64,000 nt of DNA, taken from Patescibacteria group bacterium. Its GTDB lineage: Bacteria > Patescibacteriota > Patescibacteriia > Magasanikbacterales > GWA2-37-8. Position numbers and translations under genes: made by a program. This document shows positions 7,349 through 34,312 of this stretch, in pieces. Below the pieces are notes generated by a model, which saw nothing but the letters and a program-made list of their open reading frames with translations, did no database searches and had not been told where the DNA came from. Numbering within the stretch: the stretch's first letter is position 1; each line of letters begins with the position of its first letter. The stretch spans positions 81,692 through 145,691 of the forward strand of contig JBAZUP010000001.1 in NCBI GenBank assembly GCA_041661385.1. The letters are read 5' to 3'.

Positions 7349-7349
7349 G

Positions 7350-9666: not shown

Positions 9667-9760
9667 TTGACCTGTGGATAAATAGGTAAAAAAGTGTTGA
9701 CCGATGTGGAAGAGTGGAGTAAAATGGAGATAGGTGGTGAAAAGTGGTGAAAATGCTTGT
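9667..9760 (+). promoter_or_regulatory. mraZ promoter (TTGACC-17-TAAAAT) with GTGG direct repeats (MraZ-box-like operator)
   Basis: five GTGG copies including tandem GTGGTGAAAA x2 between -10 and mraZ start. Confidence 0.45.
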
Positions 9761-9780
9761 ATCACTAACAAAACCATCCC

Positions 9781-10212: not shown

Positions 10213-10213
10213 T

Positions 10214-11122: not shown

Positions 11123-11147
11123 AAATAATATTTTTAACAAGGAGTGT

Positions 11148-11501
11148 ATGTCATTATATTCGAGGGTGCAGTATCAGTCCGGACACAGTTCCGCATTACA
11201 AACAAAATTTCCTGCCATCTTGGTGGGGGCGGCAACCCGAACTGTGCTGGTGGTATCGTTAATAATCTTGATAGTAGGGTATATTTTTCAAGTCAGCAGT
11301 CTCACAACCGGTGGTTACGAAATTGCAAAATTGCAAGAACAAACTGCACAGCTTAGCAGTGAAAATGAAAAATTACGCTCCGAGATAGCTTCTTATCAAT
11401 CAATGAGCAGTGTTGAAAAACGTCTGGAAACGCTAGGTATGGTTAAGGCAAACAATGTCCAGTATATTGATTTAAACGATTCGATTGTTGCTAAGCGATA
11501 A
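11148..11501 (+). CDS. ftsL: FtsL/DivIC-like cell division protein
   Basis: position after rsmH; single TM followed by coiled coil (LQEQTAQLSSENEKLRSEIASYQS); AAGGAG SD before ATG at 11148. Confidence 0.45.
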   Translation: MSLYSRVQYQSGHSSALQTKFPAILVGAATRTVLVVSLIILIVGYIFQVSSLTTGGYEIAKLQEQTAQLSSENEKLRSEIASYQSMSSVEKRLETLGMVKANNVQYIDLNDSIVAKR

Positions 11502-11514
11502 TAACTGAAATTTA

Positions 11515-11547
11515 ATCTCGCCAAGAGCACTTGGCGAGATTTTTTTA
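11515..11547 (+). terminator. intrinsic terminator
   Basis: atctcgccaag..cttggcgagat hairpin plus T7. Confidence 0.6.
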
Positions 11548-11599
11548 CGTCTATTTTTTGGATGGCTTCTTTATGGTATAATATAGCCATAAAATCTTT

Positions 11600-11959
11600 A
11601 TGTACGCACTTGCATTTCAACGAGTAATAATGGAAGCAATTCTTGATTTTTTTTATTTTCCAATTTGGTGGTATACCTTTGGGATGGTTCGGGCTGCTAA
11701 ATGGTGCTCTTTTGTCTTAAATGACGGTAATGATTTATTGGCACCCGGTATTTGGATCCGAAATATTTTCGTGCCGATGTTTGGCCAGTACGATTGGCAA
11801 GGTCGCATTATCAGTTTTTTTATGCGATTAATTCAAATTGTTTTTCGCAGCGCCGCATTATTAGGTTGGTTAGTTGTTTGTGTTTTTTTATTTATCGGTT
11901 ACCTTCTTATTCCGCCTGTTATTATATACGGATTTCTGAATAGTATAAATATAATCTGA
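11600..11959 (+). CDS. hypothetical small membrane protein
   Basis: hydrophobic 119-aa ORF upstream of clp-like gene; no motif. Confidence 0.3.
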   Translation: MYALAFQRVIMEAILDFFYFPIWWYTFGMVRAAKWCSFVLNDGNDLLAPGIWIRNIFVPMFGQYDWQGRIISFFMRLIQIVFRSAALLGWLVVCVFLFIGYLLIPPVIIYGFLNSINII

Positions 11960-11961
11960 TT

Positions 11962-14709: not shown

Positions 14710-14711
14710 TT

Positions 14712-15737
14712 ATGTATTTAGCTGTTGTTTTTGGGTTTTTCAGCTCAATTTTTTTCACTTTATTAGTAAGAAGGTTCGCCGAAAAGAATTTGGTATTGGA
14801 TCACCCCGATCAAACTCGAAAATTTCATCATAAAAATATTCCTCTTCTTGGCGGAGTGGCCTTGTTCATATCTTTTTGGCTGCCGGTTGGGTATATTCTT
14901 TTTTTTAATCCGGTTTTTGGTATAGAATTAATAAAAAATAAATTGCTGGCTGCTTTTTTTGGCAGCTTTATCTTAATTTTAATCGGTATCGCAGATGATA
15001 TAAAAGGACTGTCCGCGCGTTTCCGATTAGTTGCTACCGCGGGGGCAATTGCTCTAACCGTTTATTTGGGTATTGGTTTACCGAAAATTACTAATCCGCT
15101 TGGCGGCGTTATATATTTATCTGAATTATTTGGCGGAGTATTGGTTTTTATTTGGCTGCTCGGCATGACTTACACCACCAAAATTACCGACGGGTTAGAC
15201 GGCTTAGCTACCGGCATTGTTGCGATTGGCAGTTTTATGCTGTTTTTGTTGTCGAGTTTGACAAAATATTATCAGCCGAACGTCGCCTGGCTTTGTCTTG
15301 TTTTTTTTGGAGTTTGTCTTGGTTTTTTAATTTTTAATTTTCATCCGGCCAGTATATTCTTAGGTGAAAGCGGTAGTTTGTTTATTGGATTTTTACTTGG
15401 AGTTCTCGCAGTAATTTCCGGCGGAAAAGTGGCGATTGCGTTACTTGCAGTCGCAATTCCAGTTCTTGATTTAGCCCGCGTTATAATTATTCGCTGGCGC
15501 GAGGGTGTTCCGATTTTTAGCGGTGACCGCAGGCATTTGCATTTTCTACTCGTTGATTTAGGAATATCACCCGTTATTGTTACTCTTAGTTATTATCTGG
15601 TAGCGATTTCGTTTGGTTTTTTAGCGCTATATTTGTCTAGTTTTCCAAAAATTATAATATTATTTTTATTGATTTTGGTGATGGTGTTTCTAAATCAGAT
15701 TCTGCCGGAAAAAAATATTTATGATCACAAAAAATAA
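14712..15737 (+). CDS. polyprenyl-phosphate HexNAc-1-phosphate transferase (WecA/TagO-like, MraY-family GT4)
   Basis: DDxxD (GIADDIKG), TDGLDGLATG, PLLGGVALF and DRRHLHF motifs resembling WecA more than MraY. Confidence 0.7.
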   Translation: MYLAVVFGFFSSIFFTLLVRRFAEKNLVLDHPDQTRKFHHKNIPLLGGVALFISFWLPVGYILFFNPVFGIELIKNKLLAAFFGSFILILIGIADDIKGLSARFRLVATAGAIALTVYLGIGLPKITNPLGGVIYLSELFGGVLVFIWLLGMTYTTKITDGLDGLATGIVAIGSFMLFLLSSLTKYYQPNVAWLCLVFFGVCLGFLIFNFHPASIFLGESGSLFIGFLLGVLAVISGGKVAIALLAVAIPVLDLARVIIIRWREGVPIFSGDRRHLHFLLVDLGISPVIVTLSYYLVAISFGFLALYLSSFPKIIILFLLILVMVFLNQILPEKNIYDHKK

Positions 15738-16209
15738 GGTCGCACTGGGTTTTTTAAGTTTTATCGTTTTGCTTTCTTTAGCGATTAGAGCGGTAAATTT
15801 TTTTGCACCGCCAGAACCCGGATATATAAATTTTAGAGGCCATGTTTATCCAGTTTTAGTTCCGCTTACGAATGAACAAAAGTTTACCGGGCTTAGCGGG
15901 CGAAAGGATTTGGGCAAGTATTTTGGCATGTATTTTGCTTTTGAAAAGCAGGGTGTTTATACGATGGTGATGAGAGACATGCTCATACCGCTCGATATGG
16001 TGTGGTTAAGTGATAATAAGATTGTTGAAATTAAGCCTGATTTACAACCTGAACCAGGCAAGCTCGAGGATCAGCTAACCAGGTATTTTAATGCGGCAAA
16101 TTTGGCCGATGCGGTAATAGAGCTTCCGGCGGGTACAGCCAAATTCTGGGGTATGAAACCGGGTGAATCTATGATTTTTTGCCTGGATGAAAAGACCTGT
16201 CGAAGATAG
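15721..16209 (+). CDS. DUF192 domain protein
   Basis: N-terminal TM then YFAFEKQGVYTMVMRDMLIPLDMVWL core resembling COG1430/DUF192. Confidence 0.55.
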   Translation: MITKNKVALGFLSFIVLLSLAIRAVNFFAPPEPGYINFRGHVYPVLVPLTNEQKFTGLSGRKDLGKYFGMYFAFEKQGVYTMVMRDMLIPLDMVWLSDNKIVEIKPDLQPEPGKLEDQLTRYFNAANLADAVIELPAGTAKFWGMKPGESMIFCLDEKTCRR

Positions 16210-16215
16210 GCGGGC

Positions 16216-16244
16216 TTGACTTTTCTGGTATTATTCGCTATACT
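16216..16244 (+). promoter_or_regulatory. sigma70-type promoter TTGACT-17-TATACT upstream of rplU
   Basis: consensus hexamers with 17-nt spacer ~75 nt upstream of rplU start. Confidence 0.5.
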
Positions 16245-16319
16245 GTTCTTACTTTATTAAATTTAGCCCTACCTGTACCGATACAACAGGAATTTGGGGA
16301 AAAGTAGTTAACTAATATT

Positions 16320-16625
16320 ATGCTCGCAGTAATTGCAACTGGTGGCAAGCAGTACGTCGTTAAAAGCGGCGATGTTTTAAAAATTGAAAAAATTCTTGGT
16401 GAAGAAGGTTCAAAAATTTCCTTTGATCGCGTTTTACTTTCAGCCGATGAAAACGGTGAAAATGTAAAAATTGGCAACCCGACCGTTGCGGGATTAAAAG
16501 TGCCAGCCGTGATTTTGAAGCAAGGTAAACACCGAACTGTTAGAGTTGAAAAGTTCAAACGCAAGGTTCGTTACCACAAAGTACATGGTCAACGCCAACG
16601 CTTCACTGAAGTAAAAATCTCATAA
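16320..16625 (+). CDS. rplU: 50S ribosomal protein L21
   Basis: MLAVIATGGKQYVVKSGDVLKIEKI N-terminus characteristic of L21. Confidence 0.9.
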   Translation: MLAVIATGGKQYVVKSGDVLKIEKILGEEGSKISFDRVLLSADENGENVKIGNPTVAGLKVPAVILKQGKHRTVRVEKFKRKVRYHKVHGQRQRFTEVKIS

Positions 16626-16632
16626 ATAAACA

Positions 16633-16658
16633 ACCCGCCTTTAACTGGCGGGTTTTTT
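16633..16658 (+). terminator. intrinsic terminator after rplU
   Basis: cccgcc..ggcggg hairpin plus T6. Confidence 0.6.
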
Positions 16659-16688
16659 AATATTCTTAGCTAAGATTAGCAAAAACAG

Positions 16689-16717
16689 TTGACTGGTTTG
16701 CTGTTTTATGCTACAAT
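16689..16717 (+). promoter_or_regulatory. sigma70-type promoter TTGACT-17-TACAAT with ~108-nt structured leader
   Basis: consensus hexamers; leader hairpin agaacgaag..cctcgttct; strong AAAAGGAGAAG SD before 16826 ATG. Confidence 0.5.
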
Positions 16718-16825
16718 CTTTTGTTCCAATAGAACGAAGCGCAAACCGTTGTACCTCGTTCTATCGAAGCAAAAAGTTTCGATAATAACGCGGAACATAT
16801 CCGCCAACTCCAAAAGGAGAAGTAA

Positions 16826-17488
16826 ATGGCAAATATTATTTTTGCGATTCTGCGAGCCGCAGTTTACTCCTCGCTCATCATAGCTGTCATTTTCTCGGTG
16901 CACTTTTTGGTGACCCGGGCGAGGCGGGCGAGGCGAAACGGTTCTGGCATTTTCAGCAGTTTGCTGTTTGGATTCCTAAGGCTAGTTGGCGTATTTGTCC
17001 TAGTCATCGCGATATTCGGATTGCCCATCATAGCAGTGCTATATGTGTATCCGAAAATTGTTAACGCGAGGATTATGGAAAATAAGGCCCCAAACACGGA
17101 CATGATTGTCGAGGCGTCGGTGAAAGTTCCCGATATTCCTGAACCTGGTAATTCGGAGGTGATAATACCTCCAAAAAAGACAGTAAAAAGGATTGCCAAG
17201 TTTGAGGTAAGAGTGCGCGAAGGCATGACGGTAAAATTCGTTAAGAATGATGGTACCCCAACCGGTTCCATTCTCCGTCACCTTGGTGATAACACCAAAA
17301 CCATGCTCGCTCTTCCGGTTGAGCCAGAATCAGTCGCCATCATCTTCCCGATTCGGGCAGAAACAGATTGTTCATTCGAAACGAAGCAAACTCAAGGCGA
17401 GTATATTGCTTGTCAGCGAGTCGGCTCGTTCAAAGTCGAAAATGAAGTTCTAGGCATTGGCTATGCCACTTTCGACGCAGTAAAGTAA
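16826..17488 (+). CDS. hypothetical membrane-anchored protein (GC-richer, strong SD)
   Basis: two N-terminal hydrophobic helices then soluble domain; followed by structured element copy B. Confidence 0.45.
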   Translation: MANIIFAILRAAVYSSLIIAVIFSVHFLVTRARRARRNGSGIFSSLLFGFLRLVGVFVLVIAIFGLPIIAVLYVYPKIVNARIMENKAPNTDMIVEASVKVPDIPEPGNSEVIIPPKKTVKRIAKFEVRVREGMTVKFVKNDGTPTGSILRHLGDNTKTMLALPVEPESVAIIFPIRAETDCSFETKQTQGEYIACQRVGSFKVENEVLGIGYATFDAVK

Positions 17489-22713: not shown

Positions 22714-24741
22714 TTGGGTTGTATGGATGGTCACGAAGTGGAAGATAAGCCAGCAAAACTTGTAAAACCAACTGAAGAAGCTCCTCCCGAGATAAATTTT
22801 TTTGGTGCAACAAATTTTCGCAATCAGAACAGAAAATTCGGCATTAAAATTGATGATCGGCGCCGCCACATGTATGTGGTTGGCAAAACCGGCATGGGCA
22901 AGACCACCTTGCTCGAAAATATGGTTTTGAACGATATTTATGCCGGACACGGAATTGGGCTGGTTGACCCACACGGAGATTTTGCAGAAAAAATTATTAA
23001 TTATATTCCTGCGAACCGCATTAACGATGTGGTGTATTTTAATCCGGCTGATATCGATTTCCCGATTGGTTTTAATATTCTTGAAACCGTTCGACCGGAA
23101 CAAAAGCATTTGGTTGCTTCGGGGTTAATGGGGGTGTTTAAAAAAATCTGGCCCGATGTCTGGAGCGCGCGCATGGAATATATTTTGAATAATACGATTT
23201 TGGCGCTACTCGATTTTCCCGGTACCACTTTGCTCGGTATCAATAGAATGCTTGCCGATGAAGAATATCGGGTGCGAGTTGTAAACAATTCCAAAGATCC
23301 GGTTGTAAAAGCGTTTTGGCAAACAGAATTTGATTCGTATAATGACCGGTATAAGCAAGAGGCGGTTGCTCCAATTCAAAATAAAATAGGTCAATTTTTA
23401 TCTGCTTCTGTAATTCGTAATATTGTGGCGCAAGTTAAGTCGCGAATTGATATCCGCGATATTATGGATAATAAAAAAATATTTATCATGAATTTGTCTA
23501 AAGGTAGAATTGGTGAAGACAATTCGCGCTTGCTCGGTGGTATGCTTATAACCCGCTTACAGCTCGCCGCCATGGAAAGAGTCGATATTTTGGAAAAGGA
23601 TCGTAAAGATTTCTTCTTATATGTAGATGAATTTCAAAATTTTGCAACTGAAAGCTTTGCTAATATTTTATCTGAAGCCCGTAAATATCGCCTCGACCTT
23701 ATTATGGCGCATCAATATATGGAGCAGCTTGATGAAAAGGTGCTGGCTGCCGTTATCGGCAACGTGGGTACAACCGTTACCTTTAGAGTTGGCTCAACCG
23801 ATGCTGAAATTTTAGCCAAAGAGTTTGTGCCGACATTTGTTGAAGAAGATTTGGTTAATTTGCCTAAATTTCAAATTTATTTGAAATTAATGATTGACGG
23901 GGTAGCATCTAAACCGTTTTCTGCAATGACGCTTGCACCAATCGCAAAAAAAACCGACAGCCACGAAAAAGTTGTCCGCGTTTCGCGTGAACGCTATGCG
24001 GTGCCAAAGGAAAAAATCGAAGATAAAATTATGCGCTGGAGTGGGATGGGCGCGCATGATGCGCTAGAAACGGATGTGGAAGTGGATGTTGCCGGTGCCA
24101 CGCTTGCATCGTCGCCTCAAGCACCGAAACCGAATTCACCACCCCCATCAAAACCAGCATATCAGGGTAATAAGAAAGGCGGCAAAGGAAATTCTCAAAA
24201 TAAAAACACCGGCAGTTGGGGTGGAAAAAAAGATCAGAAGAATTTCAATGGCAAACCGCATCCGGAAAAAAATCCGTCGAATCAATCGCCGATGAAAGAA
24301 TTGTCCAAAATGAATCCGGCCACTCAACCAGCTGAAAAAGTTTTTCTGGTAGACCCGAATCAAAAGGGGATCACGCTTAGCGAAGCGATGGGAATAGTTA
24401 AGGTTGAAAAAAAAGCTAATCCGGCAACGGCAACTATTGCAGAATTTATTCAAGCTAAAAAATTTACCGAACAGCCAAAACCGGAATTAAAACCCGCAAC
24501 TCAAGTACAGCAAGCGCCGAAACCACCGTTAAAACCGCTGATGGCGAATTTATCGGATAAAAATTTTGTACTACCAAAAGCAGAAACAAAACCCGAATTC
24601 AAATCCCCAATAGTTGAAAAGACATCAGTTATTCCACCGCCAATTACCCAGCCGCCAAACTCGCAGTCTACTTCAAAATCAACCGAAACTCCTCTAAAGC
24701 CAAAAAAAATTGAACCAGGACAAGTCGAAAAAATAAACTAA
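22714..24741 (+). CDS. TraD/VirD4 (TrwB_AAD_bind)-like P-loop ATPase with long Pro/Lys/Gln-rich disordered tail
   Basis: RRRHMYVVGKTGMGKTT Walker A, YVDEFQNF Walker B, ARKYRLDLIMAHQYMEQL; no N-terminal TM; C-terminal 250 aa low complexity. Confidence 0.5.
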   Translation: MGCMDGHEVEDKPAKLVKPTEEAPPEINFFGATNFRNQNRKFGIKIDDRRRHMYVVGKTGMGKTTLLENMVLNDIYAGHGIGLVDPHGDFAEKIINYIPANRINDVVYFNPADIDFPIGFNILETVRPEQKHLVASGLMGVFKKIWPDVWSARMEYILNNTILALLDFPGTTLLGINRMLADEEYRVRVVNNSKDPVVKAFWQTEFDSYNDRYKQEAVAPIQNKIGQFLSASVIRNIVAQVKSRIDIRDIMDNKKIFIMNLSKGRIGEDNSRLLGGMLITRLQLAAMERVDILEKDRKDFFLYVDEFQNFATESFANILSEARKYRLDLIMAHQYMEQLDEKVLAAVIGNVGTTVTFRVGSTDAEILAKEFVPTFVEEDLVNLPKFQIYLKLMIDGVASKPFSAMTLAPIAKKTDSHEKVVRVSRERYAVPKEKIEDKIMRWSGMGAHDALETDVEVDVAGATLASSPQAPKPNSPPPSKPAYQGNKKGGKGNSQNKNTGSWGGKKDQKNFNGKPHPEKNPSNQSPMKELSKMNPATQPAEKVFLVDPNQKGITLSEAMGIVKVEKKANPATATIAEFIQAKKFTEQPKPELKPATQVQQAPKPPLKPLMANLSDKNFVLPKAETKPEFKSPIVEKTSVIPPPITQPPNSQSTSKSTETPLKPKKIEPGQVEKIN

Positions 24742-26408: not shown

Positions 26409-26487
26409 AATTATAAGGGCTTTGCCCGTATAAACTCATTCGTTCGGAAGTGAAAATGAAATTTCACTTCTCTCACTTATTTCGTTT

Positions 26488-26892
26488 ATGAAAGTTAGTA
26501 GATATTGTATAGAGTATACCAATGGTGAAGTTTTTACTCTTGGTAATACATTTGGGGAAGTAAAAGAATTTTTTGCTGAGCTTTTAAAATTAAATTGGGC
26601 CGGAATGAACGAAGAGTGGCAAGATATATTAATATTTTTACAGATTTGGATGTATTATCGTTTTAAAATTGACGGTGAAATGTGGGAATATTCGCGTGAA
26701 TCTGCTAAAAAGTTTATGGATCGAGTAGAAATTTGGCACGATATCTATCAATATGCAGGGCTCGCTAGGAATACTTCTAATTTTTGCGGAAATTATAAAC
26801 GACCTGAGAAGGTCGTTAAGCAATTGGCTAAATATGGTATTGGCGCGGAAATGGCTCGTGAAGCTTATGATCGTATAGTAATAGGGGTGTAA
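26488..26892 (+). CDS. hypothetical protein, possibly MazG-like all-alpha NTP pyrophosphohydrolase
   Basis: EVKEFFAELLK and NEEWQDIL acidic motifs resemble ExxE...ExxD of MazG/HisE family; first gene of coupled operon (TAA-ATG junction). Confidence 0.3.
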   Translation: MKVSRYCIEYTNGEVFTLGNTFGEVKEFFAELLKLNWAGMNEEWQDILIFLQIWMYYRFKIDGEMWEYSRESAKKFMDRVEIWHDIYQYAGLARNTSNFCGNYKRPEKVVKQLAKYGIGAEMAREAYDRIVIGV

Positions 26893-26893
26893 A

Positions 26894-27814
26894 ATGAAAA
26901 AAGTATATTACATAAAGATATATTACAAACCTAAAAATATTTACGAAAAAAAAATATTATTTTTATTGCAGTCCCTAAGTAATATACGACGTATTAAATT
27001 CTTCCATCATTTTTTAGATCAAAACGGACTTGAGACTGTAAAAAAGATGAAAAAACTTCAGGAAACCCGAGGGTATAAATATTCCGGTAAACCAATTATT
27101 ACTAATAATATTGAAAAAGGTTTAGTTAAAATCAACACGGGACAAAATAGAAGTGTATTGCTTATCGTAATAAAAGCGGATGATAGGATAAAAAAAGAGA
27201 TCGATGACTTGTTAAATAAATTTAAGCATTTCTTTTTAAGCATAAAAATAAGCACAAAGTACGTTGAAGATGTTGAGATAATTACACCATTAAATATGCG
27301 TGGTGGTAATGATTTTCTAAATTTATCATTTTATATATCTAAAATTGCTATCGATTTGCTTAAAATTAAAAAAAATAGTGATTTAAAAAATATGCCGATG
27401 GTATTTCTTGGTGTTTCGGTAATTTTTGATCTGGAAAAAAAGTTTAAAAAAAAATATATATTTAAAAAAATAATTCACCAGTATCGCCTGTACTTAAATA
27501 AATATTTTATGTTTAATGAAAATGAGATGCTGTCTTTGAATAAAGCTAGTGAAAAATATGTTGGTATTTTAACTAAAGTTGACAAGTGTGAGTTTGATTT
27601 TCAGAATGGAGTGGTTTATAAATATTTTATTAACGGTATATATGATTATTTTAACAAGAGTAACCACCTAAAAAGAGTTGAAAATAATAACAAAAAGAGG
27701 CAACTATCGTGGCAATTTTTTCACTGGTTTAATAACTCACTGAATATCCATTTCGCCAAGGAAGTATTGTTGGTATTTGTGCTAATGAAATATTATGAGA
27801 GTAAAAAATCATGA
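26894..27814 (+). CDS. hypothetical Lys/Asn/Ile-rich protein (AT-rich island)
   Basis: strongly AT-biased codon usage unlike flanking genes; no motif. Confidence 0.4.
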   Translation: MKKVYYIKIYYKPKNIYEKKILFLLQSLSNIRRIKFFHHFLDQNGLETVKKMKKLQETRGYKYSGKPIITNNIEKGLVKINTGQNRSVLLIVIKADDRIKKEIDDLLNKFKHFFLSIKISTKYVEDVEIITPLNMRGGNDFLNLSFYISKIAIDLLKIKKNSDLKNMPMVFLGVSVIFDLEKKFKKKYIFKKIIHQYRLYLNKYFMFNENEMLSLNKASEKYVGILTKVDKCEFDFQNGVVYKYFINGIYDYFNKSNHLKRVENNNKKRQLSWQFFHWFNNSLNIHFAKEVLLVFVLMKYYESKKS

Positions 27815-29879
27815 TTATATAAGAACAACATCTGTTGAGTATAATCAGGCAGTAAAATTAGTTTCTACTACTTTTATTAATGAAACATTTAGAATGTTGT
27901 ATAAATTTGGTAAGTTTCCAAAATTAGACATTCGTACCATTGATGAAAGATGTGGGAAGGTAGATATGACTGCTTATATAAAATCATATGGAAAATGCAT
28001 ATCTTCAATTAAAAGTAGATTATATAAGCTCACTTTTTCCCCCGTCATCAGTGTTTGCATAGCATATAATAATAAACCGTTATTAGATGATTTTGAAAAA
28101 ATTAAATATTCAACTAATAAAAAAAGAAATAATAATGTATTTCGGTCACTAAATTTTTTTATAAGTAGAGCAACGTTTGACGCGACCTACGGTGGATTAT
28201 TTGGTTTTTATTCACATTTTAGATTTGTTTCAAGTCATAATGTGTCGTTTAATAAAAAGTTATTACTTTTTTCGGAAAAGAATAGGTTAGATGTTGATTC
28301 AGTTAAAATATCTAAATCGAATGTTTTTTCATTAAATCCAACGATTGTTATTAGTGAAAATTATGTAATGTATTTCAGATACAAAAAAAATGAGGAGGAA
28401 GTTATCAAGGTCCACAGTAAGGAGGTAGTTCGCTTATTTAAAAAATTAGCAAGTGCAAAATCAAATTTAATTAGCTTGGATGATTTAGAAAACGCAATTA
28501 AATTAACCGGGATTAGGAAGAATTTTGATAATAAATATTATTTATCGTTTGTTAGTAAATTAATAGATTTGGGACTTATCAAGCGAGATCCAATAAGTGT
28601 TAAGAATAAATTATTTAAAAATAGAAGTTTTGATATACCTTTTGAGGCTAAAAGTATAAGAGGCATAAAAGATGAAAAACATAGTATTTATGATCTTTAT
28701 AATGTAAATAATGTATATGTTGAAAATAGTCTAAGTAATGAATTCAAGGCCTCAACATCCATATATTTAAATTTATTAAACCAACAACTACAGTCAATTC
28801 ATAATGAAAAAGTCTATTTAGGCAACATCTTACGTCAATACCTAAAAAATATTAATAAGGATAGGTGCGGCTTGTTAGACTTCGTAGTCGTTTTTAAGGA
28901 CGAAATATTAAATCTTAAAAAATCGCGGGCGAATAATTCGTTTTCTTTTTATGAAAAATTTTTAAATGAAATCAATACTAACAAAAAAGCTGAAGAAGTC
29001 CAGTTTAAAAATATTTTTACACAAAAAAGCGAAGTTAAGAGCGATTTAGAATTTTATCTTTCTGTATGCAAAATTAATAATAAAAACCGAATTTTAATTA
29101 ATTGTATATCCCCGTCGGGTGTTTTAAGTTCTCGATTTGATTATATTCTAAAATCTAAGAGAACCATTTTTCACAGATCGATGTATGAACCTATTGAAGT
29201 TATATTCGAGCCACAAAATATTAATCTTTTTCATTCATTTAGAAGAAATAAATATACAAAATATTTTTTAAATATCAATTGTAATTTAAATAATTTACGT
29301 CAAGAAGTAATAAATGCTAATAGTATTTGTCTTACAATAGGTGAAAGCGGTCTGCCTGTGCTATTCAGCCCAGAAACAAACATGTTTTTTGATCCAGTTG
29401 TCCATTCCACATTATCTGCCGAACATAGTATAATTTTAGTTTTTTTAAGAATGATAAGCCGCTGCCAGGAGGAAATTGACGTCCTGCCACGACTATTGCC
29501 AGATCGGGTAAAGGGTTTAAATTATATTCCACGGGTAGTAGTCGAAAATTTGATAATATCTAAAAGGATTTGGAAAATTGAACTTGTGGAAATTAATATC
29601 ATTAATGGTTCGATACCCAAGTATAATGAGTATTTGTATTTAATGAATTATTTCAAGGTGAGAAAAATTCCACGTTTTGTTACTGTGTTTAGTCCGCTCA
29701 ATGAAAAACAAAAGTTTCTTGATTTGTATAATCCGTTTGCTTTTTTGTTGTTCAAAAAATATAAAAATGAAAAGTATATTTTTTTTGAAGAAATGATGCC
29801 GTCGCCAAACAACGTTAGTGATTTTGATGAAAAAAATAAACATTTTAATCAGTATTTTTTTACTCATCAAATTTCATAA
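27795..29879 (+). CDS. large hypothetical protein (694 aa), possibly LanB N-terminal-like
   Basis: size and position upstream of rSAM and LanB-C-like gene; no diagnostic motif verified. Confidence 0.35.
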   Translation: MRVKNHDYIRTTSVEYNQAVKLVSTTFINETFRMLYKFGKFPKLDIRTIDERCGKVDMTAYIKSYGKCISSIKSRLYKLTFSPVISVCIAYNNKPLLDDFEKIKYSTNKKRNNNVFRSLNFFISRATFDATYGGLFGFYSHFRFVSSHNVSFNKKLLLFSEKNRLDVDSVKISKSNVFSLNPTIVISENYVMYFRYKKNEEEVIKVHSKEVVRLFKKLASAKSNLISLDDLENAIKLTGIRKNFDNKYYLSFVSKLIDLGLIKRDPISVKNKLFKNRSFDIPFEAKSIRGIKDEKHSIYDLYNVNNVYVENSLSNEFKASTSIYLNLLNQQLQSIHNEKVYLGNILRQYLKNINKDRCGLLDFVVVFKDEILNLKKSRANNSFSFYEKFLNEINTNKKAEEVQFKNIFTQKSEVKSDLEFYLSVCKINNKNRILINCISPSGVLSSRFDYILKSKRTIFHRSMYEPIEVIFEPQNINLFHSFRRNKYTKYFLNINCNLNNLRQEVINANSICLTIGESGLPVLFSPETNMFFDPVVHSTLSAEHSIILVFLRMISRCQEEIDVLPRLLPDRVKGLNYIPRVVVENLIISKRIWKIELVEINIINGSIPKYNEYLYLMNYFKVRKIPRFVTVFSPLNEKQKFLDLYNPFAFLLFKKYKNEKYIFFEEMMPSPNNVSDFDEKNKHFNQYFFTHQIS

Positions 29880-29882
29880 TTT

Positions 29883-31253
29883 ATGGATGTCTCAAATATA
29901 AACAAATATAGTCTCAGAACATTGTTATCTCAACTATACAGTTGTGATGATTTTTTTATGGTCAGAGATATTTTAAGAATTATAATGATAAATAAAAAAA
30001 ATAATGAAATGATTTTCAAATCAATTAATAAAGTCGGGATAAAAAAAGAAAATAAGGATAAAATTTTAAAATTAAATAATAAATTAAAAAATACACCTGA
30101 CGTACATCTCAAATTTGATGGAGCGGTAATTTTTTATAAGCACATCTCTCCCGGTTGTGAGCATTGTGTTGTAGATATGGGCTGTACCATAAGGCCATCA
30201 ATCCAATGTAATAGAAATTGTTTTTTTTGTTTTGTAGACGATTCACCCATAACAAAAAAGATTAAACCCGATTTGGTTTCGATTAAAAAAATCATTAAGA
30301 ATCGATTTAAAGAAGAAAAATTTCAATCATTTGCGATTAGTGGAGGAGAGCCGTTTTTATATCCGGAAGAAGTTTTTGAGATTTTGCGATTTGTCAATAA
30401 TGAATTTGGAAGCAGTGTTTACACAAGAGTTTATACCAACGGAGATTTAGTTAATGAAAATATCTTGATTAAATTAAAAGAGTTAAAACTTAATGAAATT
30501 AGATTTAGTGTGAAGCCGCTTGAAGAGCCGAAAACGTCTTTATTAAAATGTGCAAAAAGGTATATTCCAACTGTTTTAATTGAAATGCCGGTACTTCCAA
30601 ATTCAGAAAAGTTTATGAAAAAATTAATTTTAAAGTTGGATAAAATCGGAATTGATGGAATAAATTTATTAGAATTATTTTATAATGGTCACAACTCGGA
30701 AATATTTAAAAAAAGGCATTACAAAATTGACATAACTGAAAGTGAGATTAGAAAAATTTATAACTCCAAACCAGTTTTTGAATATCCAATATATGGAAGT
30801 CGGGCGCTTTGTCTTAAATTACTCAAATATTTTTCCGATGCTAAATTGGGAATGTTTATTAATTTTTGTTCACAAAAAACCAAGCAGCTTCAATATGACC
30901 GGCGGCAAAAAAAAGTCGCTAGTGAAAATATGACGCCTTTTTCTATAATTACACCGGTTAGCACACATGAGGTATTAGCAATATATTCGGATTTAGAAAT
31001 GATTGAAAAAAAATTGAAAAACTTAGGAATAAAGGAGTATTTAGTTAGGAAAGATAAAAATATTAGTTTGAGAATTGAGACCAGCGTTACAAATATCGGA
31101 ATTTTTAGAAAAGAAAATATTTCTTTAGTCAAATTATATAGAGATCCTAGCAATACTTACGACATCGGTTTTAAGGTTATTAAAATCAAAAAAAATAAAG
31201 ATATAAATACAAATGTATCTGAACTGATTGACAACTTCAAAAAATATGTCTAA
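29883..31253 (+). CDS. radical SAM protein with extra N-terminal Cys cluster
   Basis: CNRNCFFC (CxxxCxxC) preceded by CEHCVVDMGC; glycine-rich SAM motif FAISGGEPFLYPE; ~90-aa N-terminal extension; no SPASM Cys set. Confidence 0.8.
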   Translation: MDVSNINKYSLRTLLSQLYSCDDFFMVRDILRIIMINKKNNEMIFKSINKVGIKKENKDKILKLNNKLKNTPDVHLKFDGAVIFYKHISPGCEHCVVDMGCTIRPSIQCNRNCFFCFVDDSPITKKIKPDLVSIKKIIKNRFKEEKFQSFAISGGEPFLYPEEVFEILRFVNNEFGSSVYTRVYTNGDLVNENILIKLKELKLNEIRFSVKPLEEPKTSLLKCAKRYIPTVLIEMPVLPNSEKFMKKLILKLDKIGIDGINLLELFYNGHNSEIFKKRHYKIDITESEIRKIYNSKPVFEYPIYGSRALCLKLLKYFSDAKLGMFINFCSQKTKQLQYDRRQKKVASENMTPFSIITPVSTHEVLAIYSDLEMIEKKLKNLGIKEYLVRKDKNISLRIETSVTNIGIFRKENISLVKLYRDPSNTYDIGFKVIKIKKNKDINTNVSELIDNFKKYV

Positions 31254-32058
31254 AAAAATATATCGGAACAAAGGTTGCGTAAAAATATCTAGCTGGATAC
31301 AATTAAGAATTACAAATTGTAAGTTCGGTGATGATTATATTTTAGGGGACCTTTCAAAATATTTGGAAATATTAAGAAACAAAAAACAAATAAAATCTTG
31401 GTTTTTTTTAAATAAAAATGATTCAATCCTGCTAAAAATTGAATCTGCTGATAAGTATTCGAATAAATTTTTGGATGTAATTAAATATTTAAAGCAAAAT
31501 GGTCCTCGGATTAATGTCACCACAGAACCATTTGAACCTGAGATTTTTCAGTTCGGTGGTAAAACTGGGTGGGCTGTAGCTTCAAAATATTTCAACTCTA
31601 TTTCAGTATTGTCTATTAAATCAATTAAATCTAAAATAACGAATATAAACGCCGCCATTGTTTTGGTATTTGATTTGCTGATGAGAAATAATTCTGACTC
31701 GTTTGAGGTTTGGGATATTATGCAGAGGTTGATGATAATAAGGGGAGTTTCTCAAGATTATTCCTCTGCCGGTATTGAGAAAAATACAATATATCAAAAT
31801 ATTAACACATTATTTAATAAGCCCGATAAATTTTATCTCGAAACATTTAAAAATACAAAAATGATTAAGGAAGTTGTAGCAGCCAGTAAATATTGCCTAC
31901 GAGAACTTAAAAAAAATGAACGTTCATTAATCTTTTCGCACAGGAAAATATTACCTTATTATGTAATATTTATTTTTAATATGTTGCTGATTTCTGAGAG
32001 TGAGCAAAAAGATATTATAAAATCAATGTCTGTTTTGTGTAATCCTGGAAAATATTAA
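31228..32058 (+). CDS. LanB C-terminal (SpaB_C / thiopeptide-type bacteriocin biosynthesis)-like domain protein
   Basis: SWFFLNKNDSILLKIE resembles the WFF-x5-D-x2-L-x-L block and FEPEIFQFGG resembles the YxPExxRYGG block recalled for Lant_dehydr_C; alternative start ATG 31246. Confidence 0.4.
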   Translation: MTTSKNMSKKIYRNKGCVKISSWIQLRITNCKFGDDYILGDLSKYLEILRNKKQIKSWFFLNKNDSILLKIESADKYSNKFLDVIKYLKQNGPRINVTTEPFEPEIFQFGGKTGWAVASKYFNSISVLSIKSIKSKITNINAAIVLVFDLLMRNNSDSFEVWDIMQRLMIIRGVSQDYSSAGIEKNTIYQNINTLFNKPDKFYLETFKNTKMIKEVVAASKYCLRELKKNERSLIFSHRKILPYYVIFIFNMLLISESEQKDIIKSMSVLCNPGKY

Positions 32059-32089
32059 AAAGTCGATTTAAAAATTCCAAATTATATTA

Positions 32090-32122
32090 AAAAAATCCGG
32101 GCATAAATACCCGGATTTTTTC
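32090..32122. terminator. bidirectional intrinsic terminator
   Basis: A-run, atccggg..cccggat hairpin, T-run. Confidence 0.6.
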
Positions 32123-32134
32123 TTACTATTGTAA

Positions 32135-32248
32135 TTAGTGACCGGAAGTTGTGTTGGATGTATTTTTCACTTTTTCGTATATAATTTCCATGTCTACTTT
32201 TAGTTCTTTCTCGAGTTCCTGTTCTAAATTTTTTACTTCTTTTTTCAT
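32135..32248 (-). CDS. small ORF (37 aa) with Ser/Thr-rich C-terminus; candidate precursor-like peptide
   Basis: MKKEVKNLEQELEKELKVDMEIIYEKVKNTSNTTSGH; convergent to AT-rich operon; driven by consensus promoter; not in ORF track. Confidence 0.3.
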   Translation of the reverse strand: MKKEVKNLEQELEKELKVDMEIIYEKVKNTSNTTSGH

Positions 32249-32290
32249 AATGAAATCAGTTATATTTTTTATAAAATCGACCTTTGATTA

Positions 32291-32318
32291 ATTATAGTAA
32301 AAAATGGGACTTTGTCAA
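32291..32318 (-). promoter_or_regulatory. consensus sigma70 promoter TTGACA-16-TATAAT (minus strand)
   Basis: revcomp of tgtcaa (32313-32318) and attata (32291-32296). Confidence 0.5.
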
Positions 32319-32452
32319 ATTAATAGTAATAAATCGTAATATTTATCGTTTTGATGATTGTCGTAGGTGCATTTGTATTATCGATCAAACCACAATAGGT
32401 CTTTACCAAATTCAAATAATGTGGCAATATTAGAGAACTTATTATAAGGATT

Positions 32453-34312
32453 ATGCTAACCTCAGTACAATTACGCCAAAAATATCTGGAATTTTTCAAA
32501 ATAAAGGGTCACGCCATTATTGCGTCAGCGTCTCTAATTCCAAATAATGACCCCTCCGTATTGTTTACAACTGCCGGCATGCACCCCTTGGTGCCCTATC
32601 TTTTGGGTCAAAAACACCCCGCCGGAAAAAGATTGGCAAACGCCCAAAAATGTGTCCGTACGGGAGATATTGATGAAACCGGTGACAATCGCCATCTGAC
32701 ATTTTTTGAGATGCTTGGTAATTGGTCTCTAGGTGATTATTTTAAAGAAGAAGCGATTCGCTGGAGCTGGGAATTTCTTACTTCACCCGAGTGGCTTCGT
32801 TTGGATAAAAGAAAAATAGCAGTATCAGTATTTGCCGGCGATAAGGAAATGGGTATTCCACAAGATGATGAAGCTGCTAATATTTGGAAATCAGCTGGTG
32901 TTCCCGAAGAGCGAATTGCGTATTTAGGAAAAGACAATAATTGGTGGCCAGCCGGTGGAAAGATGCCTGGTCCACAAGGCCCTGATACGGAGATGTTTTA
33001 CTGGGCGGGTGAAGCCGAATTGCCGCCACCAGGCAGCAATCCTCGCACCGACGAAGCAAGCTGGCTCGAAATCTGGAATGATGTATTCATGCAGTTTAAT
33101 AAAAGTGCCGACGGCGAGTATGTGCAGCTGGAACAGAAAAATGTGGATACCGGCATGGGCCTCGAGCGTACCCTCAAAGTTTTAAATGGCTATGCGGATG
33201 TTTTTCAAACCGATACTTTTTGGCCGCTCATTGAAAGCATTCAGGGCATGTGCCAGCATTCATACATTGAAGGTGGAAAAACAACGAAGGCGATGCGAAT
33301 AATCGCTGATCATTTGCGTACAGCGACGTTTATTATGGGAGATGATAGCGGAATTACCCCCAGCAATACTGATCAGGGATATATTGTTCGTCGCCTAATT
33401 CGCCGGGCGGTTCGCTACGGACGAATGTTGAATATTAAGGGCGATTTTACCGTTGCGATTGCCAAAAAAATTATAGAGATATTTAAGGATGCTTATCCGG
33501 AATTAAATCGTAATAAAGAATTTATTTTCAATGAGCTCGCCGGTGAAGAGAATAAATTTACCAACACAGTTGAGCAGGGCTTGAAGGAATTTGAAAAATT
33601 ATTGAATAGTTATCGTGTTTCATTTGAAAAAACCGGAAATGTTATAAAAGAAATTTCCGGAAAGCATGCTTTTAAGTTATATGATACTTATGGTTTTCCG
33701 CTAGAAATGACCCAGGAACTCGCGCTTGAAAATGCTCTTCAAGTGGATGTAGCCGGTTTTCAAGATCAATTTATAAAACATCAGGAAACCTCACGGGCCG
33801 GCGCAGAACAAAAATTTGCCGGTGGTCTAGCGGATCACAGTGAAATGGCTACTAAATATCATACCGCCACTCATTTGTTACATGCCGCCCTGCAAAAAGT
33901 TTTGGGTAAACATGCTACTCAACGGGGGAGTAATATTACTGCGGAGCGAATGCGCTTTGATTTTAGTCATCCGCAGAAAATGACAGCTGAAGAAGTAAAA
34001 ACTGTTGAAGACCTGGTCAACGCCGCAATTACCAAAGATTATCAGGTTACGTATAAAGAAATGAGTTTTGCGGAAGCGAAGAAAAAAGGTGCAATCGGTT
34101 TATTTGAAGATAAATATTTGGATAAAGTAAAAGTTTATACTGTAGGCGACCCAGAACAGTCAGCCACCGCCGACCCAAACACTCCGACCTTTAGTCGTGA
34201 GGTTTGTGGCGGGCCGCATGTGGAGCATACTGCCACGCTTGGTAAATTTAAAATAACAAAAGAAGAAGCGGTTAGCTCGGGAGTTCGAAGAATTAAAGCT
34301 GTTTTAGAATAG
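32453..34312 (+). CDS. alaS: alanine--tRNA ligase, short form lacking C-terminal C-Ala/DHHA1 domain
   Basis: class II aaRS catalytic core, tRNA-recognition and editing domain (HTATHLLHAAL...GGPHVEHTATLG) but only 619 aa. Confidence 0.85.
   Translation: MLTSVQLRQKYLEFFKIKGHAIIASASLIPNNDPSVLFTTAGMHPLVPYLLGQKHPAGKRLANAQKCVRTGDIDETGDNRHLTFFEMLGNWSLGDYFKEEAIRWSWEFLTSPEWLRLDKRKIAVSVFAGDKEMGIPQDDEAANIWKSAGVPEERIAYLGKDNNWWPAGGKMPGPQGPDTEMFYWAGEAELPPPGSNPRTDEASWLEIWNDVFMQFNKSADGEYVQLEQKNVDTGMGLERTLKVLNGYADVFQTDTFWPLIESIQGMCQHSYIEGGKTTKAMRIIADHLRTATFIMGDDSGITPSNTDQGYIVRRLIRRAVRYGRMLNIKGDFTVAIAKKIIEIFKDAYPELNRNKEFIFNELAGEENKFTNTVEQGLKEFEKLLNSYRVSFEKTGNVIKEISGKHAFKLYDTYGFPLEMTQELALENALQVDVAGFQDQFIKHQETSRAGAEQKFAGGLADHSEMATKYHTATHLLHAALQKVLGKHATQRGSNITAERMRFDFSHPQKMTAEEVKTVEDLVNAAITKDYQVTYKEMSFAEAKKKGAIGLFEDKYLDKVKVYTVGDPEQSATADPNTPTFSREVCGGPHVEHTATLGKFKITKEEAVSSGVRRIKAVLE

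What the first reader, a model, noticed from the sequence alone, without database searches (positions are those of the whole stretch)
32135..32318. 37-aa Ser/Thr-rich small ORF driven by a perfect TTGACA-16-TATAAT promoter, convergent on the rSAM operon
The best promoter in the window sits in the 394-nt gap before alaS. It drives a minus-strand ATG..TAA ORF, MKKEVKNLEQELEKELKVDMEIIYEKVKNTSNTTSGH, that ends at the bidirectional terminator shared with the AT-rich operon. The product has an acidic/helical N-terminal half and a C-terminal TSNTTSG stretch. That is the organisation expected for a leader-core precursor peptide whose Ser/Thr could be dehydrated, although no Cys is present. It could instead be a small regulatory protein or a sRNA.
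Basis: seen in the sequence. Interest (0 to 1): 0.55.

Follow-up and report, generated by a model that had tools for sequence, protein, structure and literature searches.

The report
Unannotated RiPP precursor peptide gene
The 37-codon ORF is a real, conserved gene: it encodes the substrate (precursor) peptide of a rare, uncharacterised peptide-modification gene cluster found only in tiny-genome Patescibacteria, and this copy is a natural variant that has lost one modification step.

Summary
ORF 32135-32248(-), a 12/12 TTGACA-16-TATAAT promoter and a bidirectional terminator are all present. The promoter is one of two perfect ones in the window.

The host is a Patescibacteria MAG. The ORF lies at the edge of a 27%-GC island that encodes p306, a LanB-N-like protein, a radical-SAM enzyme and a Lant_dehydr_C protein.

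Every sufficiently long related locus carries a homologous small ORF. All share a conserved leader (LEKELxVDMxVIYxK) and a C-terminus [S/T]-x-S-G-H. Substitutions are mostly synonymous (pN/pS 0.02-0.3). Differences by codon position are 414/278/715. I conclude it is a translated precursor peptide, not an sRNA.

In most relatives the peptide gene is followed by a read-through hairpin and a PapB-like rSAM/SPASM thioether maturase, and the core contains a Cys. The window lacks that enzyme, has Asn in place of Cys, and its hairpin has become a full terminator. The same reduced layout recurs in three other loci.

The chemistry is not shown. Split-LanB dehydration of Thr33/Ser35 plus an rSAM step is most likely. 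alaS adjoins the cluster in every locus, which leaves open a PEARL-like, Ala-tRNA-dependent extension of the invariant C-terminus. The peptide family matches no Pfam or NCBIfam model.

The parts
32291..32318 (-). Sigma-70-type promoter TTGACA-16-TATAAT for the peptide gene
   Evidence: It is a 12/12 match. The TTGACA -35 box is conserved upstream of the homologous peptide genes in 10 of 12 aligned loci.
32277..32285 (-). Conserved AAAGGTCGA motif at the predicted transcription start, 6-8 nt after the -10 box. It marks the start of a roughly 36-nt 5' UTR.
   Evidence: The motif is aligned in the window, L001, L004, L011, L012 and L022, with a variant in L020. Its reading frame relative to the ATG differs between loci, so it is not coding (translations). 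Its function is unknown.
32135..32248 (-). 37-aa precursor peptide gene, stop codon included
   Evidence: Searches give the ORF. Homologues are shown. pN/pS is 0.02-0.5. Differences by codon position are 414/278/715.
32171..32215 (-). Conserved leader box, residues L12-K26 (LEKELKVDMEIIYEK)
   Evidence: This is the best-conserved block in the 13-sequence alignment. The reading as the enzyme-recognition part of the leader is inferred.
32138..32152 (-). C-terminal core motif T33-T34-S35-G36-H37, matching the family motif [S/T]-x-S-G-H
   Evidence: S-G-H is invariant and position -5 is always Ser or Thr in all 13 peptides. Codon use is synonymous and mixed: TCC/TCT/TCA, all four Gly codons, and AGT as well as TCN/ACN at -5. 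N32 occupies the position where most homologues have Cys.
32089..32122 (.). Bidirectional intrinsic terminator. It is homologous to the hairpin that follows the peptide gene in all relatives.
   Evidence: Found. In the consensus hairpin, 10 of 16 pairs show compensatory changes across 10 loci. A T-run follows the hairpin in the PapB-less loci (window, L021, L024). No T-run follows it where a PapB-like gene comes next.
26894..27814 (+). p306, a conserved cluster protein with no sequence-family match and probably a SpaB_C/Lant_dehydr_C-like fold
   Evidence: It is present in all loci at 29-48% identity. It matches no Pfam, NCBIfam or PDB sequence. The AF2 model has pLDDT 61 and pTM 0.59. The top Foldseek PDB hits are TsrL, PbtD, TbtD, MadB and NisB, with E 2e-3 to 0.2 and TM 0.36-0.50.
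27795..29879 (+). LanB-N-like protein (Lant_dehydr_N, highly divergent)
   Evidence: PF04738 scores E 6e-4 in the window copy, which is below the cut-off. All 5 orthologues match, best E 5e-13.
29883..31253 (+). Radical-SAM enzyme rSAM1 (CxxxCxxC core, extra CxxC, no SPASM domain)
   Evidence: PF04055 matches. The AF2 model has pLDDT 92.7. The core resembles viperin, PflA and NifB-type rSAM folds, and the N- and C-terminal domains are unmatched. C92, C95, C109, C113, C116 and C329 are invariant.
31228..32058 (+). Stand-alone Lant_dehydr_C / thiopeptide-type bacteriocin biosynthesis protein (putative elimination subunit)
   Evidence: PF14028 scores E 5.7e-9 and TIGR03891 scores E 1.6e-11.
26488..26892 (+). 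134-aa ORF, 1 nt upstream of p306 and unique to this locus. Whether it belongs to the cluster is uncertain.
   Evidence: It matches no family and has no homologue in the related loci. It is not a remnant of alaS.
32453..34312 (+). Short-type alaS (619 aa), divergent from the peptide promoter. alaS adjoins the cluster in every locus.
   Evidence: NF002436 scores 842 bits. alaS lies directly upstream of p306 in L001, L004, L007, L011, L012 and L024.

Best explanation
The ORF is the structural (precursor) gene of a ribosomally synthesised, post-translationally modified peptide. The modifying enzymes are the adjacent AT-rich operon: p306, a LanB-N-like protein, rSAM1 and a Lant_dehydr_C protein.

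Shown here:
- The gene is conserved, is under protein-level selection, and always accompanies this enzyme set.
- It is a self-contained transcription unit of about 200 nt, with a consensus promoter, a 36-nt A-rich 5' UTR, a 114-nt ORF and an intrinsic terminator.

Inferred:
- Residues 1-27 act as a leader. The conserved box LEKELxVDMxVIYxK would be bound by the enzymes.
- The C-terminal core (KNTSNTTSGH) is the part that is modified.
- The split LanB-like pair most likely activates and eliminates the conserved hydroxyl residues Thr33 and Ser35, giving Dhb and Dha.
- rSAM1 then adds a second, still unknown modification at or near the invariant Ser-Gly-His end.

In most relatives a PapB-like rSAM/SPASM enzyme is co-transcribed behind a read-through hairpin. 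It presumably makes a thioether from the core Cys. This window is a natural reduced variant: that enzyme is absent, Cys is replaced by Asn, and the hairpin has become a full terminator. The strong separate promoter gives the usual excess of precursor over enzymes.

I put about 0.85 on the claim that it is the substrate peptide of this cluster, and about 0.5 on the specific dehydration route.
For: Homologous small ORFs sit beside the cluster in L001/2, L004-6, L007/9, L011, L012/13, L014/27, L020-L024.

The 13-sequence alignment shows a conserved leader box and an invariant SGH. pN/pS is 0.02-0.3 among the closer pairs; L001 against L011, for example, has 10 synonymous changes and 1 non-synonymous. 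Differences at codon positions 1/2/3 are 414/278/715, and the conserved Ser, Gly and Ser/Thr residues use mixed synonymous codons.

The gene that follows the peptide in relatives scores best against the PapB ranthipeptide maturase family NF047865, at 251-256 bits. The hairpin after the ORF has 10 of 16 covarying pairs. The -35 box is conserved.

All four cluster enzymes are full length and 31-56% identical to their orthologues. The reduced, PapB-less layout recurs in L020, L021 and L024, the last on a complete Saccharibacteria chromosome.

The lack of a Shine-Dalgarno sequence is uninformative, because only 12 of 43 window genes have one. No other conserved small ORF exists in the island.
Against: - No modification has been observed, and the chemistry is inferred from weak family assignments. 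The window's LanB-N Pfam hit is below threshold, the p306 model is of low confidence, and the rSAM1 fold match is generic.
- No LanC, YcaO, protease or exporter is encoded in the island, so leader removal and export are unexplained.
- The window peptile lacks the Cys present in 11 of 13 family members, so it could be a relaxed copy.
- The exact sequence is absent from the 15-billion-protein collection. That look-up also missed a homologue that had been called as a gene, so this point is weak.
- The link between Cys and PapB is only suggestive. All 7 PapB-positive lineages have Cys, against 2 of 4 PapB-less lineages. By my own hypergeometric count that gives p of about 0.11.
Confidence: 0.7

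Rival explanations
1. The peptide is a pearlin-type scaffold. The LanB-N-like protein would be a peptide aminoacyl-tRNA ligase (PEARL) that extends the invariant ...Ser-Gly-His carboxylate with alanine. The Ala-tRNA(Ala) would come from the adjacent AlaRS. rSAM1 and the other proteins would then tailor the appended residue.
For: - alaS adjoins the cluster in all seven lineages where the flank is visible. It overlaps or abuts p306 in six of them.
- In the window the adjacency is kept in a different arrangement, even though the cluster looks horizontally acquired. The window alaS is 47% identical to the others, which are 61-89% identical to each other, while cluster proteins are 31-56% identical. 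GC is 27% in the cluster against 43% in alaS.
- The extreme C-terminus is invariant.
- The LanB-N-like protein has no fused elimination domain.
- An Ala-tRNA(Ala)-using PEARL, BhaBC-Ala, is documented (PMC12550832).
Against: - A stand-alone Lant_dehydr_C protein is conserved in every locus, and p306 may be a second one. PEARL systems are defined by lacking elimination activity.
- The conserved Ser/Thr at -5 and Ser at -3 fit dehydration.
- alaS is probably the single housekeeping copy, and its adjacency among the Saccharibacteria-like loci may be vertical.
- No release protease is present.
Confidence: 0.12
2. The window copy is a decaying relic. After loss of the PapB-like maturase the precursor lost its essential Cys and no longer yields a functional product.
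For: The window peptide is one of only two Cys-less family members among the 13. No PapB-like gene is found anywhere in 64 kb. pN/pS against relatives is somewhat higher, at 0.21-0.48.
Against: - The ORF is intact, the promoter is a perfect consensus, and the hairpin has been remodelled into a proper terminator.
- All four enzymes are full length.
- The invariant [S/T]-x-SGH motif and the leader box are retained.
- PapB-less clusters recur independently in L020, whose LanB-C is closest to the L011/L012 group, and in L021 and L024.
Confidence: 0.08
3. The ORF is a small regulatory protein or a non-coding or dual-function sRNA that is not a substrate of the neighbouring enzymes. It might, for example, regulate alaS or the operon.
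For: It has its own strong promoter and terminator. It is divergent from alaS. A conserved non-coding motif lies at the 5' end.
Against: - Selection acts at the protein level and substitutions show triplet periodicity.
- There is no Rfam match.
- The transcript has no stable structure apart from the terminator, and the whole-transcript z-score is only -2.0.
- In relatives the gene is co-transcribed with a peptide maturase.
- The transcript does not overlap the convergent operon.
Confidence: 0.04

Closest known systems
Thiopeptide/pyritide split-LanB systems (TbtB/TbtC/TbtD, LazB/LazF type)
   Same: Both have a separate Lant_dehydr_N protein and a roughly 270-aa Lant_dehydr_C/TIGR03891 protein. 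Both have a further roughly 300-aa protein; here its model best matches the pyridine synthases TsrL, PbtD and TbtD. Both use a small leader-core precursor, and neither has a dedicated protease.
   Different: There is no YcaO or azole machinery. The two-Ser pattern that pyridine formation needs is not conserved: P0071 has a single Ser, and position -5 is often Thr. A non-SPASM rSAM enzyme is a core component here. The precursor family is unrelated. The p306 fold assignment is weak.
Class I lanthipeptides (NisA with NisB/NisC)
   Same: Both have a LanB-type enzyme next to a small acidic-leader peptide with Ser/Thr in the C-terminal part. The leader motif (L/V)-D-M resembles the FNLD box; I recall this from memory and did not test it.
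   Different: There is no LanC. The dehydratase is split and very divergent. The window peptide has no Cys, so no lanthionine can form.
Ranthipeptides (PapA/PapB, freyrasin type)
   Same: In relatives, a PapB-like rSAM/SPASM gene directly follows the peptide gene and the core carries a Cys. PapB can link Cys to a C-terminal carboxylate residue (PMC12373016). That would suit the C-x4-His-COOH arrangement.
   Different: The scores are below the equivalog cut-off (251-256 bits against 340). There is one Cys only and no Asp or Glu after it. This window has neither the enzyme nor the Cys, so it is not a ranthipeptide.
Pearlin scaffold peptides with PEARLs (BhaA/BhaBC-Ala, TglA/TglB)
   Same: Both involve a LanB-N homologue without a fused elimination domain and a peptide with an invariant C-terminus. 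An aminoacyl-tRNA synthetase gene (alaS) is linked to the cluster. There is precedent for use of Ala-tRNA(Ala).
   Different: A stand-alone elimination-domain homologue is conserved in the cluster. There is no release protease. tRNA dependence is untested.

Membership tests
RiPP precursor peptide (generic) | Small ORF encoded beside peptide-modifying enzymes, with that linkage conserved across genomes | tested here: met
   A homologous ORF is present in every related locus with enough flanking sequence.
RiPP precursor peptide (generic) | Evolves as a protein-coding sequence | tested here: met
   pN/pS is 0.02-0.5. Differences by codon position are 414/278/715, and invariant residues use synonymous codons.
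RiPP precursor peptide (generic) | Two-part layout: a conserved recognition leader and a C-terminal core | tested here: met
   The leader box LEKELxVDMxVIYxK and the C-terminal [S/T]-x-SGH are conserved, with variable residues between them. The cleavage site is unknown.
RiPP precursor peptide (generic) | The peptide is modified by the neighbouring enzymes | not testable with these tools
   This needs co-expression and mass spectrometry.
Class I lanthipeptide | LanB dehydratase (Lant_dehydr_N plus Lant_dehydr_C) | tested here: inconclusive
   The enzyme is split into two proteins. PF14028 passes its cut-off (37 against 24.4 bits). PF04738 is below its cut-off in the window (18.5 against 28 bits) but matches all 5 orthologues, best E 5e-13.
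Class I lanthipeptide | LanC cyclase and Cys in the core for (methyl)lanthionine | tested here: not met
   No cluster protein matches a LanC family. The window peptide has no Cys.
Thiopeptide / pyritide | [4+2] pyridine synthase of SpaB_C fold | tested here: inconclusive
   The best structural matches of the p306 model are TsrL, PbtD and TbtD. They are weak (E 2e-3 to 0.2, TM about 0.45-0.5) and the model has pLDDT 61. There is no profile similarity to the cluster's own Lant_dehydr_C protein.
Thiopeptide / pyritide | Two conserved Ser residues in the core that become the pyridine; azole-forming YcaO for thiopeptides | tested here: not met
   Only Ser(-3) is invariant. P0071 has a single Ser. 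No YcaO is present.
Ranthipeptide (PapB type) | PapB-like rSAM/SPASM maturase encoded with the precursor | tested here: not met
   It is present in relatives. tblastn finds none in the 64-kb window.
Ranthipeptide (PapB type) | Cys donor with a downstream carboxylate acceptor | tested here: not met
   The window peptide has no Cys. Relatives have one Cys, and the only downstream carboxylate is the C-terminus.
Pearlin scaffold / PEARL | LanB-N homologue, with no elimination domain in the pathway | tested here: not met
   The LanB-N-like protein lacks a fused C-domain, but a stand-alone Lant_dehydr_C protein is conserved in every locus.
Pearlin scaffold / PEARL | aa-tRNA-dependent extension of the peptide C-terminus | not testable with these tools
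   Only indirect hints exist: the invariant SGH C-terminus and the alaS adjacency.
Known sRNA / cis-regulatory RNA (Rfam) | Match to a covariance model | tested here: not met
   Nothing reaches a gathering score in the whole window. The only sub-threshold hit is Leu_leader at E 0.47, which overlaps the terminator.

The most novel reading that the evidence does not exclude
The cluster may be a new RiPP or pearlin-like pathway specific to Patescibacteria. In this reading the divergent LanB-N-like enzyme uses Ala-tRNA(Ala) rather than Glu-tRNA(Glu), either to extend the invariant Ser-Gly-His C-terminus or to activate it. That would explain why alaS stays welded to the cluster even after horizontal transfer into a distant host. 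The 37-aa peptide would then be a reusable scaffold rather than a classical leader-core precursor.
Probability: 0.12. Interest if true: 0.8.

Novelty: new variant of a known kind. Interest (0 to 1): 0.58.

Why it matters
Patescibacteria (CPR) have genomes of about 0.6-0.8 Mb and very few recognised natural-product pathways. This is a complete, compact RiPP locus whose substrate gene was not found in the public protein collection by exact look-up. The precursor family matches no Pfam or NCBIfam model. I found only about a dozen distinct sequences among billions of proteins.

The enzyme combination was not found in the literature I could search: split LanB-like proteins, a non-SPASM rSAM, an extra protein probably of SpaB_C fold, and an optional PapB-like maturase. 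Natural variants with and without the PapB-like enzyme and the Cys amount to a ready-made dissection of the pathway.

The persistent alaS linkage raises a testable question about which aminoacyl-tRNA the LanB-like enzyme uses. More generally, the case shows that a consensus promoter, a small ORF and a terminator next to orphan maturases can be enough to spot an unannotated precursor gene.

Tried and rejected
- **Rfam.** The region was searched at E up to 1 and the whole window at gathering score. Nothing relevant turned up.
- **Pfam and NCBIfam on five family peptides at E up to 10.** Only noise.
- **p306.** There were no Pfam, NCBIfam or PDB sequence hits. hhalign found no relation to the cluster's Lant_dehydr_C. 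The homologue search returned only 3 sequences, so the AF2 model is shallow.
- **LanB-N profile and single sequence against PDB.** No hits, so PEARL and dehydratase could not be told apart by sequence. The Lant_dehydr_C profile against PDB also gave no hits.
- **rSAM1 structure.** The model is confident, but the matches are to generic rSAM cores.
- **134-aa ORF as a donor alaS remnant.** Rejected.
- **Signs of island insertion.** No flanking direct repeats or tRNA were found.
- **Viral contigs.** No relative of the cluster.
- **Strict Cys-PapB co-loss.** Rejected as a rule, because L024 and L021 keep a Cys without an adjacent PapB-like gene.
- **Pyridine ([4+2]) chemistry.** Considered because of the p306 fold hits and rejected as the general route, because a two-Ser pattern is not conserved.
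- **42-aa ORF in L011.** It looks like a transposase HTH fragment and not a second precursor.
- **Literature.** Searches found no description of this cluster type.

Full report
**Observation.** The minus-strand ORF at 32135-32248 translates to MKKEVKNLEQELEKELKVDMEIIYEKVKNTSNTTSGH. TTGACA (32318-32313), a 16-nt spacer and TATAAT (32296-32291) form the only 12/12 promoter match in 24-40 kb. A 15-pair hairpin with T-runs on both strands lies at 32089-32122. It ends both this ORF and the convergent plus-strand operon. Across the whole window there are two perfect promoters, the other at 56208-56236(-), against 0.08 expected. So "the best promoter" should read "one of the two best". A 37-codon ORF in AT-rich DNA means little alone. 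The decisive evidence is comparative.

**Setting.** The contig is a 778-kb Patescibacteria MAG (P0001). The ORF sits at the right edge of a 27%-GC island (about 26.4-32.3 kb) between mnmA and alaS, whose flanks are 40-45% GC. The island encodes, in order:
- a 134-aa ORF with no relatives;
- p306, with no family match;
- a 694-aa protein with a sub-threshold Lant_dehydr_N match;
- a 456-aa radical-SAM enzyme (rSAM1);
- a 276-aa Lant_dehydr_C/TIGR03891 protein.

No LanC, YcaO, protease or exporter is present.

**Comparative test.** Homologues of rSAM1 (44-58% identity) were traced to their contigs. One scan each of genome and metagenome contigs added more loci. The typical layout is alaS, p306, LanB-N, rSAM1 and Lant_dehydr_C on one strand. 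A small ORF follows on the opposite strand, and behind it lies a roughly 378-aa radical-SAM gene.

These small ORFs are homologues of the window ORF. Examples are MKKEAKAQEQNLEKELELDMEVIYEKVNNTSCTLSGH from L001 and ...KKQDLEKELELDMEVIFNKTNSKSCSLSGH from L007. L014 gives MNDETILENKKEEIDFDEIDFDEIDFDIETIYKKVSFTSCTLSGH. A profile search of 5.8 billion proteins found 8 clusters. A full HMMER scan of 1.8 billion representatives found 6, three of them new. The family is real but very rare.

Thirteen distinct peptides align with a conserved leader box (LEKELxVDMxVIYxK). The C-terminus Ser-Gly-His is invariant, and position -5 is always Ser or Thr.

**Coding signal.** Over the last 27 codons, pN/pS is 0.02-0.13 within the L001/L004/L011 group and 0.21-0.32 between the window and those loci. 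Pairwise differences at codon positions 1/2/3 are 414/278/715. The invariant Ser uses TCC, TCT and TCA. Gly uses all four codons. The Ser/Thr at -5 uses ACN, TCN and AGT. This is protein-level selection.

The sRNA alternative has no support. Rfam gives no match. The predicted transcript folds only into its terminator. The missing Shine-Dalgarno sequence is not informative, because only 12 of 43 genes in the window have one.

**Regulatory anatomy.** The -35 TTGACA is conserved in 10 of 12 aligned loci. It is followed after the -10 box by a conserved AAAGGTCGA-like motif at the predicted start site. The reading frame of that motif varies between loci, so it is not coding.

The hairpin after the stop codon is homologous in all loci, and 10 of its 16 pairs show compensatory changes. 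Where a maturase gene follows, the hairpin lacks a T-run and the next ATG is 20-30 nt away, as expected of a read-through attenuator. In the window, L021 and L024 a T-run follows the hairpin and no gene comes next. I read this as the usual RiPP design of abundant precursor and limited enzyme. That reading is an inference.

**The missing enzyme and the missing Cys.** The gene behind the peptide in relatives scores best against the PapB ranthipeptide maturase family NF047865. The scores are 251-256 bits, below the equivalog cut-off of 340. tblastn finds no such gene in the 64-kb window.

Eleven of the 13 peptides have one Cys at -6 or -7. The window (NTSNTTSGH) and L020 (NSVFNTLSGH) have Asn at -6 and no Cys. 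In L020 the Lant_dehydr_C gene converges directly on the peptide, as it does in the window. L020's cluster is closer to the L011/L012 group than to the window. The two losses therefore appear to be independent.

The link is not strict. L021 (KTCNTTSGH) and L024 (NLTCSQSGH, on a complete Saccharibacteria chromosome) also lack an adjacent PapB-like gene but keep a Cys. Every PapB-positive lineage has Cys, and PapB-less lineages may lose it. This fits PapB acting on that Cys, but by my own count the statistics are only suggestive (p about 0.1).

PapB links Cys to carbons next to carboxylates, including a peptide's C-terminal residue (PMC12373016). The only carboxylate after the Cys in this family is the C-terminus. 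A Cys-to-C-terminal-residue macrocycle in the relatives is therefore plausible. It is untested and does not apply to the window peptide.

The recurrence of the four-enzyme, PapB-less layout argues that the window locus is a functional reduced variant and not a wreck. All enzymes are full length.

**Enzymes.**
- All five LanB-N orthologues match PF04738, best E 5e-13.
- The 276-aa protein passes the PF14028 cut-off.
- p306 has no sequence relatives outside the cluster. Its AF2 model is weak, with pLDDT 61 and pTM 0.59. Even so, 12 of its 16 best PDB matches share one fold. They are the [4+2] cyclases TsrL, PbtD and TbtD and the elimination domains of MadB and NisB, with E 2e-3 to 0.3 and TM up to 0.50.
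- rSAM1 models confidently, with pLDDT 92.7. It shows only a generic viperin/PflA-like core, with novel N- and C-terminal domains and no SPASM domain.

The trio of a LanB-N protein and two SpaB_C-like proteins mirrors TbtB/C/D of thiopeptides and pyritides. Pyridine formation needs two conserved Ser residues, and the family lacks that pattern. I therefore favour simple dehydration of the conserved hydroxyls (Thr33, Ser35), followed by an rSAM1 step of unknown nature near the invariant SGH end. p306 could be a leader-binding or auxiliary subunit.

**alaS.** alaS precedes p306, overlapping or abutting it, in L001, L004, L007, L011, L012 and L024. In the window alaS lies on the other side, divergent from the peptide promoter.

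The window AlaRS is only 47-48% identical to the others, which are 61-89% identical to each other. For cluster proteins, the window is as close to the L001 group as L007 is, or closer: rSAM1 is 54-56% identical against 51-53%. Together with the GC contrast this points to horizontal acquisition of the cluster, yet it again lies next to alaS. The 134-aa ORF is not an alaS remnant, and no repeats or tRNA mark the island ends.

An Ala-tRNA(Ala)-dependent PEARL exists (PMC12550832). A PEARL-like extension of the invariant C-terminus therefore cannot be excluded. The conserved stand-alone elimination-domain protein argues against it.

**Comparison and novelty.** The locus works like a RiPP precursor-plus-maturase system. 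It is not a member of:
- class I lanthipeptides, because there is no LanC and no Cys;
- thiopeptides, because there is no YcaO and no two-Ser pattern;
- ranthipeptides, because this locus has no PapB-like enzyme and no Cys;
- pearlins, because an elimination-domain protein is present.

The precursor family matches no Pfam or NCBIfam model. I found no description of this architecture. I rate it a new variant of a known kind.

**Limits.** No chemistry has been demonstrated. The leader-core boundary, leader removal, export and biological role are all unknown. The p306 and LanB-N assignments are weak. Only 64 kb of the genome was visible.

Noticed in passing
window 32453-34312; L001 5152-7005; L004 1794-3671; L007 2893-4818; L011 504-2378; L012 419-2293; L024 3842-5764: A short-type alaS (617-641 aa) adjoins the cluster in every locus where the flank is visible. 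It overlaps or abuts p306 in six lineages and lies on the opposite side in the window. The window AlaRS is only 47-48% identical to the others, which are 61-89% identical to each other. The cluster proteins do not show that extra distance. The adjacency therefore seems to have been kept or re-created after horizontal transfer.
   Followed up: partly
window 26410-32320: The whole cluster is a 27%-GC island between mnmA and alaS, whose flanks are 40-45% GC. In all related hosts the cluster is likewise 24-30% GC and lower than its flanks. No flanking direct repeats, tRNA or integrase were seen in the window.
   Followed up: partly
window 32277-32285(-); L007, L023, L021 and L024 5' UTRs: A conserved AAAGGTCGA motif lies at the predicted transcription start of the peptide mRNA. 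In the L007/L023/L021/L024 subgroup a 5'-UTR hairpin (GTGCC...GGCAC) follows instead. Gene callers translate that hairpin as a spurious N-terminal extension (KGSVPPL...). In L024 a stop codon interrupts that frame.
   Followed up: partly
window 55959-56236(-): A second perfect promoter (TTGACA-17-TATAAT, 56208-56236) precedes a GC-rich 59-aa ORF at 56138-55959 (MPNGTKKKIAPVANTQPRNAATESANRYPGIPEYAQGVFHPDDDRSRRILHRLLGHSNE). The ORF has an AAGGA upstream and a terminator-like hairpin downstream.
   Followed up: no
window 26488-26892(+): A 134-aa ORF lies 1 nt upstream of p306, in the position alaS holds in other loci. It has no family match and no homologue in any related locus. Its GC content (35%) is intermediate.
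   Followed up: partly
window, genome-wide (e.g. starts at 55143(-), 61342(+)): Only 12 of 43 long ORFs have a detectable Shine-Dalgarno duplex. Several have a TATAAT-like box immediately before the ATG, which suggests leaderless or SD-independent initiation is common in this organism.
   Followed up: no
window 22714-24741(+): A 675-aa TrwB/TraG-like type IV coupling protein lies about 2 kb upstream of the island.
   Followed up: no
L024 11277-16913: On the Saccharibacteria chromosome the peptide gene is followed by a xylose-isomerase-like TIM-barrel gene. After that come a large serine recombinase, a terminase large subunit and a ParB-methylase. This looks like a prophage or mobile element abutting the cluster.
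   Followed up: no
L001 11355-13099; L014 262-399: The cluster has accessory variations. L001 carries an aldo-keto reductase and an extra 299-aa rSAM between rSAM1 and Lant_dehydr_C. The L014 peptide has a leader with three tandem EIDFD repeats, and its gene is divergent from p306 rather than convergent on the operon.
   Followed up: no
L010 (Gracilibacteria, 1-17347); L018/L019: More distant rSAM1 homologues (38-39% identity) lie in very large multi-rSAM clusters with 8-10 radical-SAM genes, a PqqD-like protein and a glycosyltransferase. These clusters have no LanB-like genes and no homologue of this peptide.
   Followed up: no
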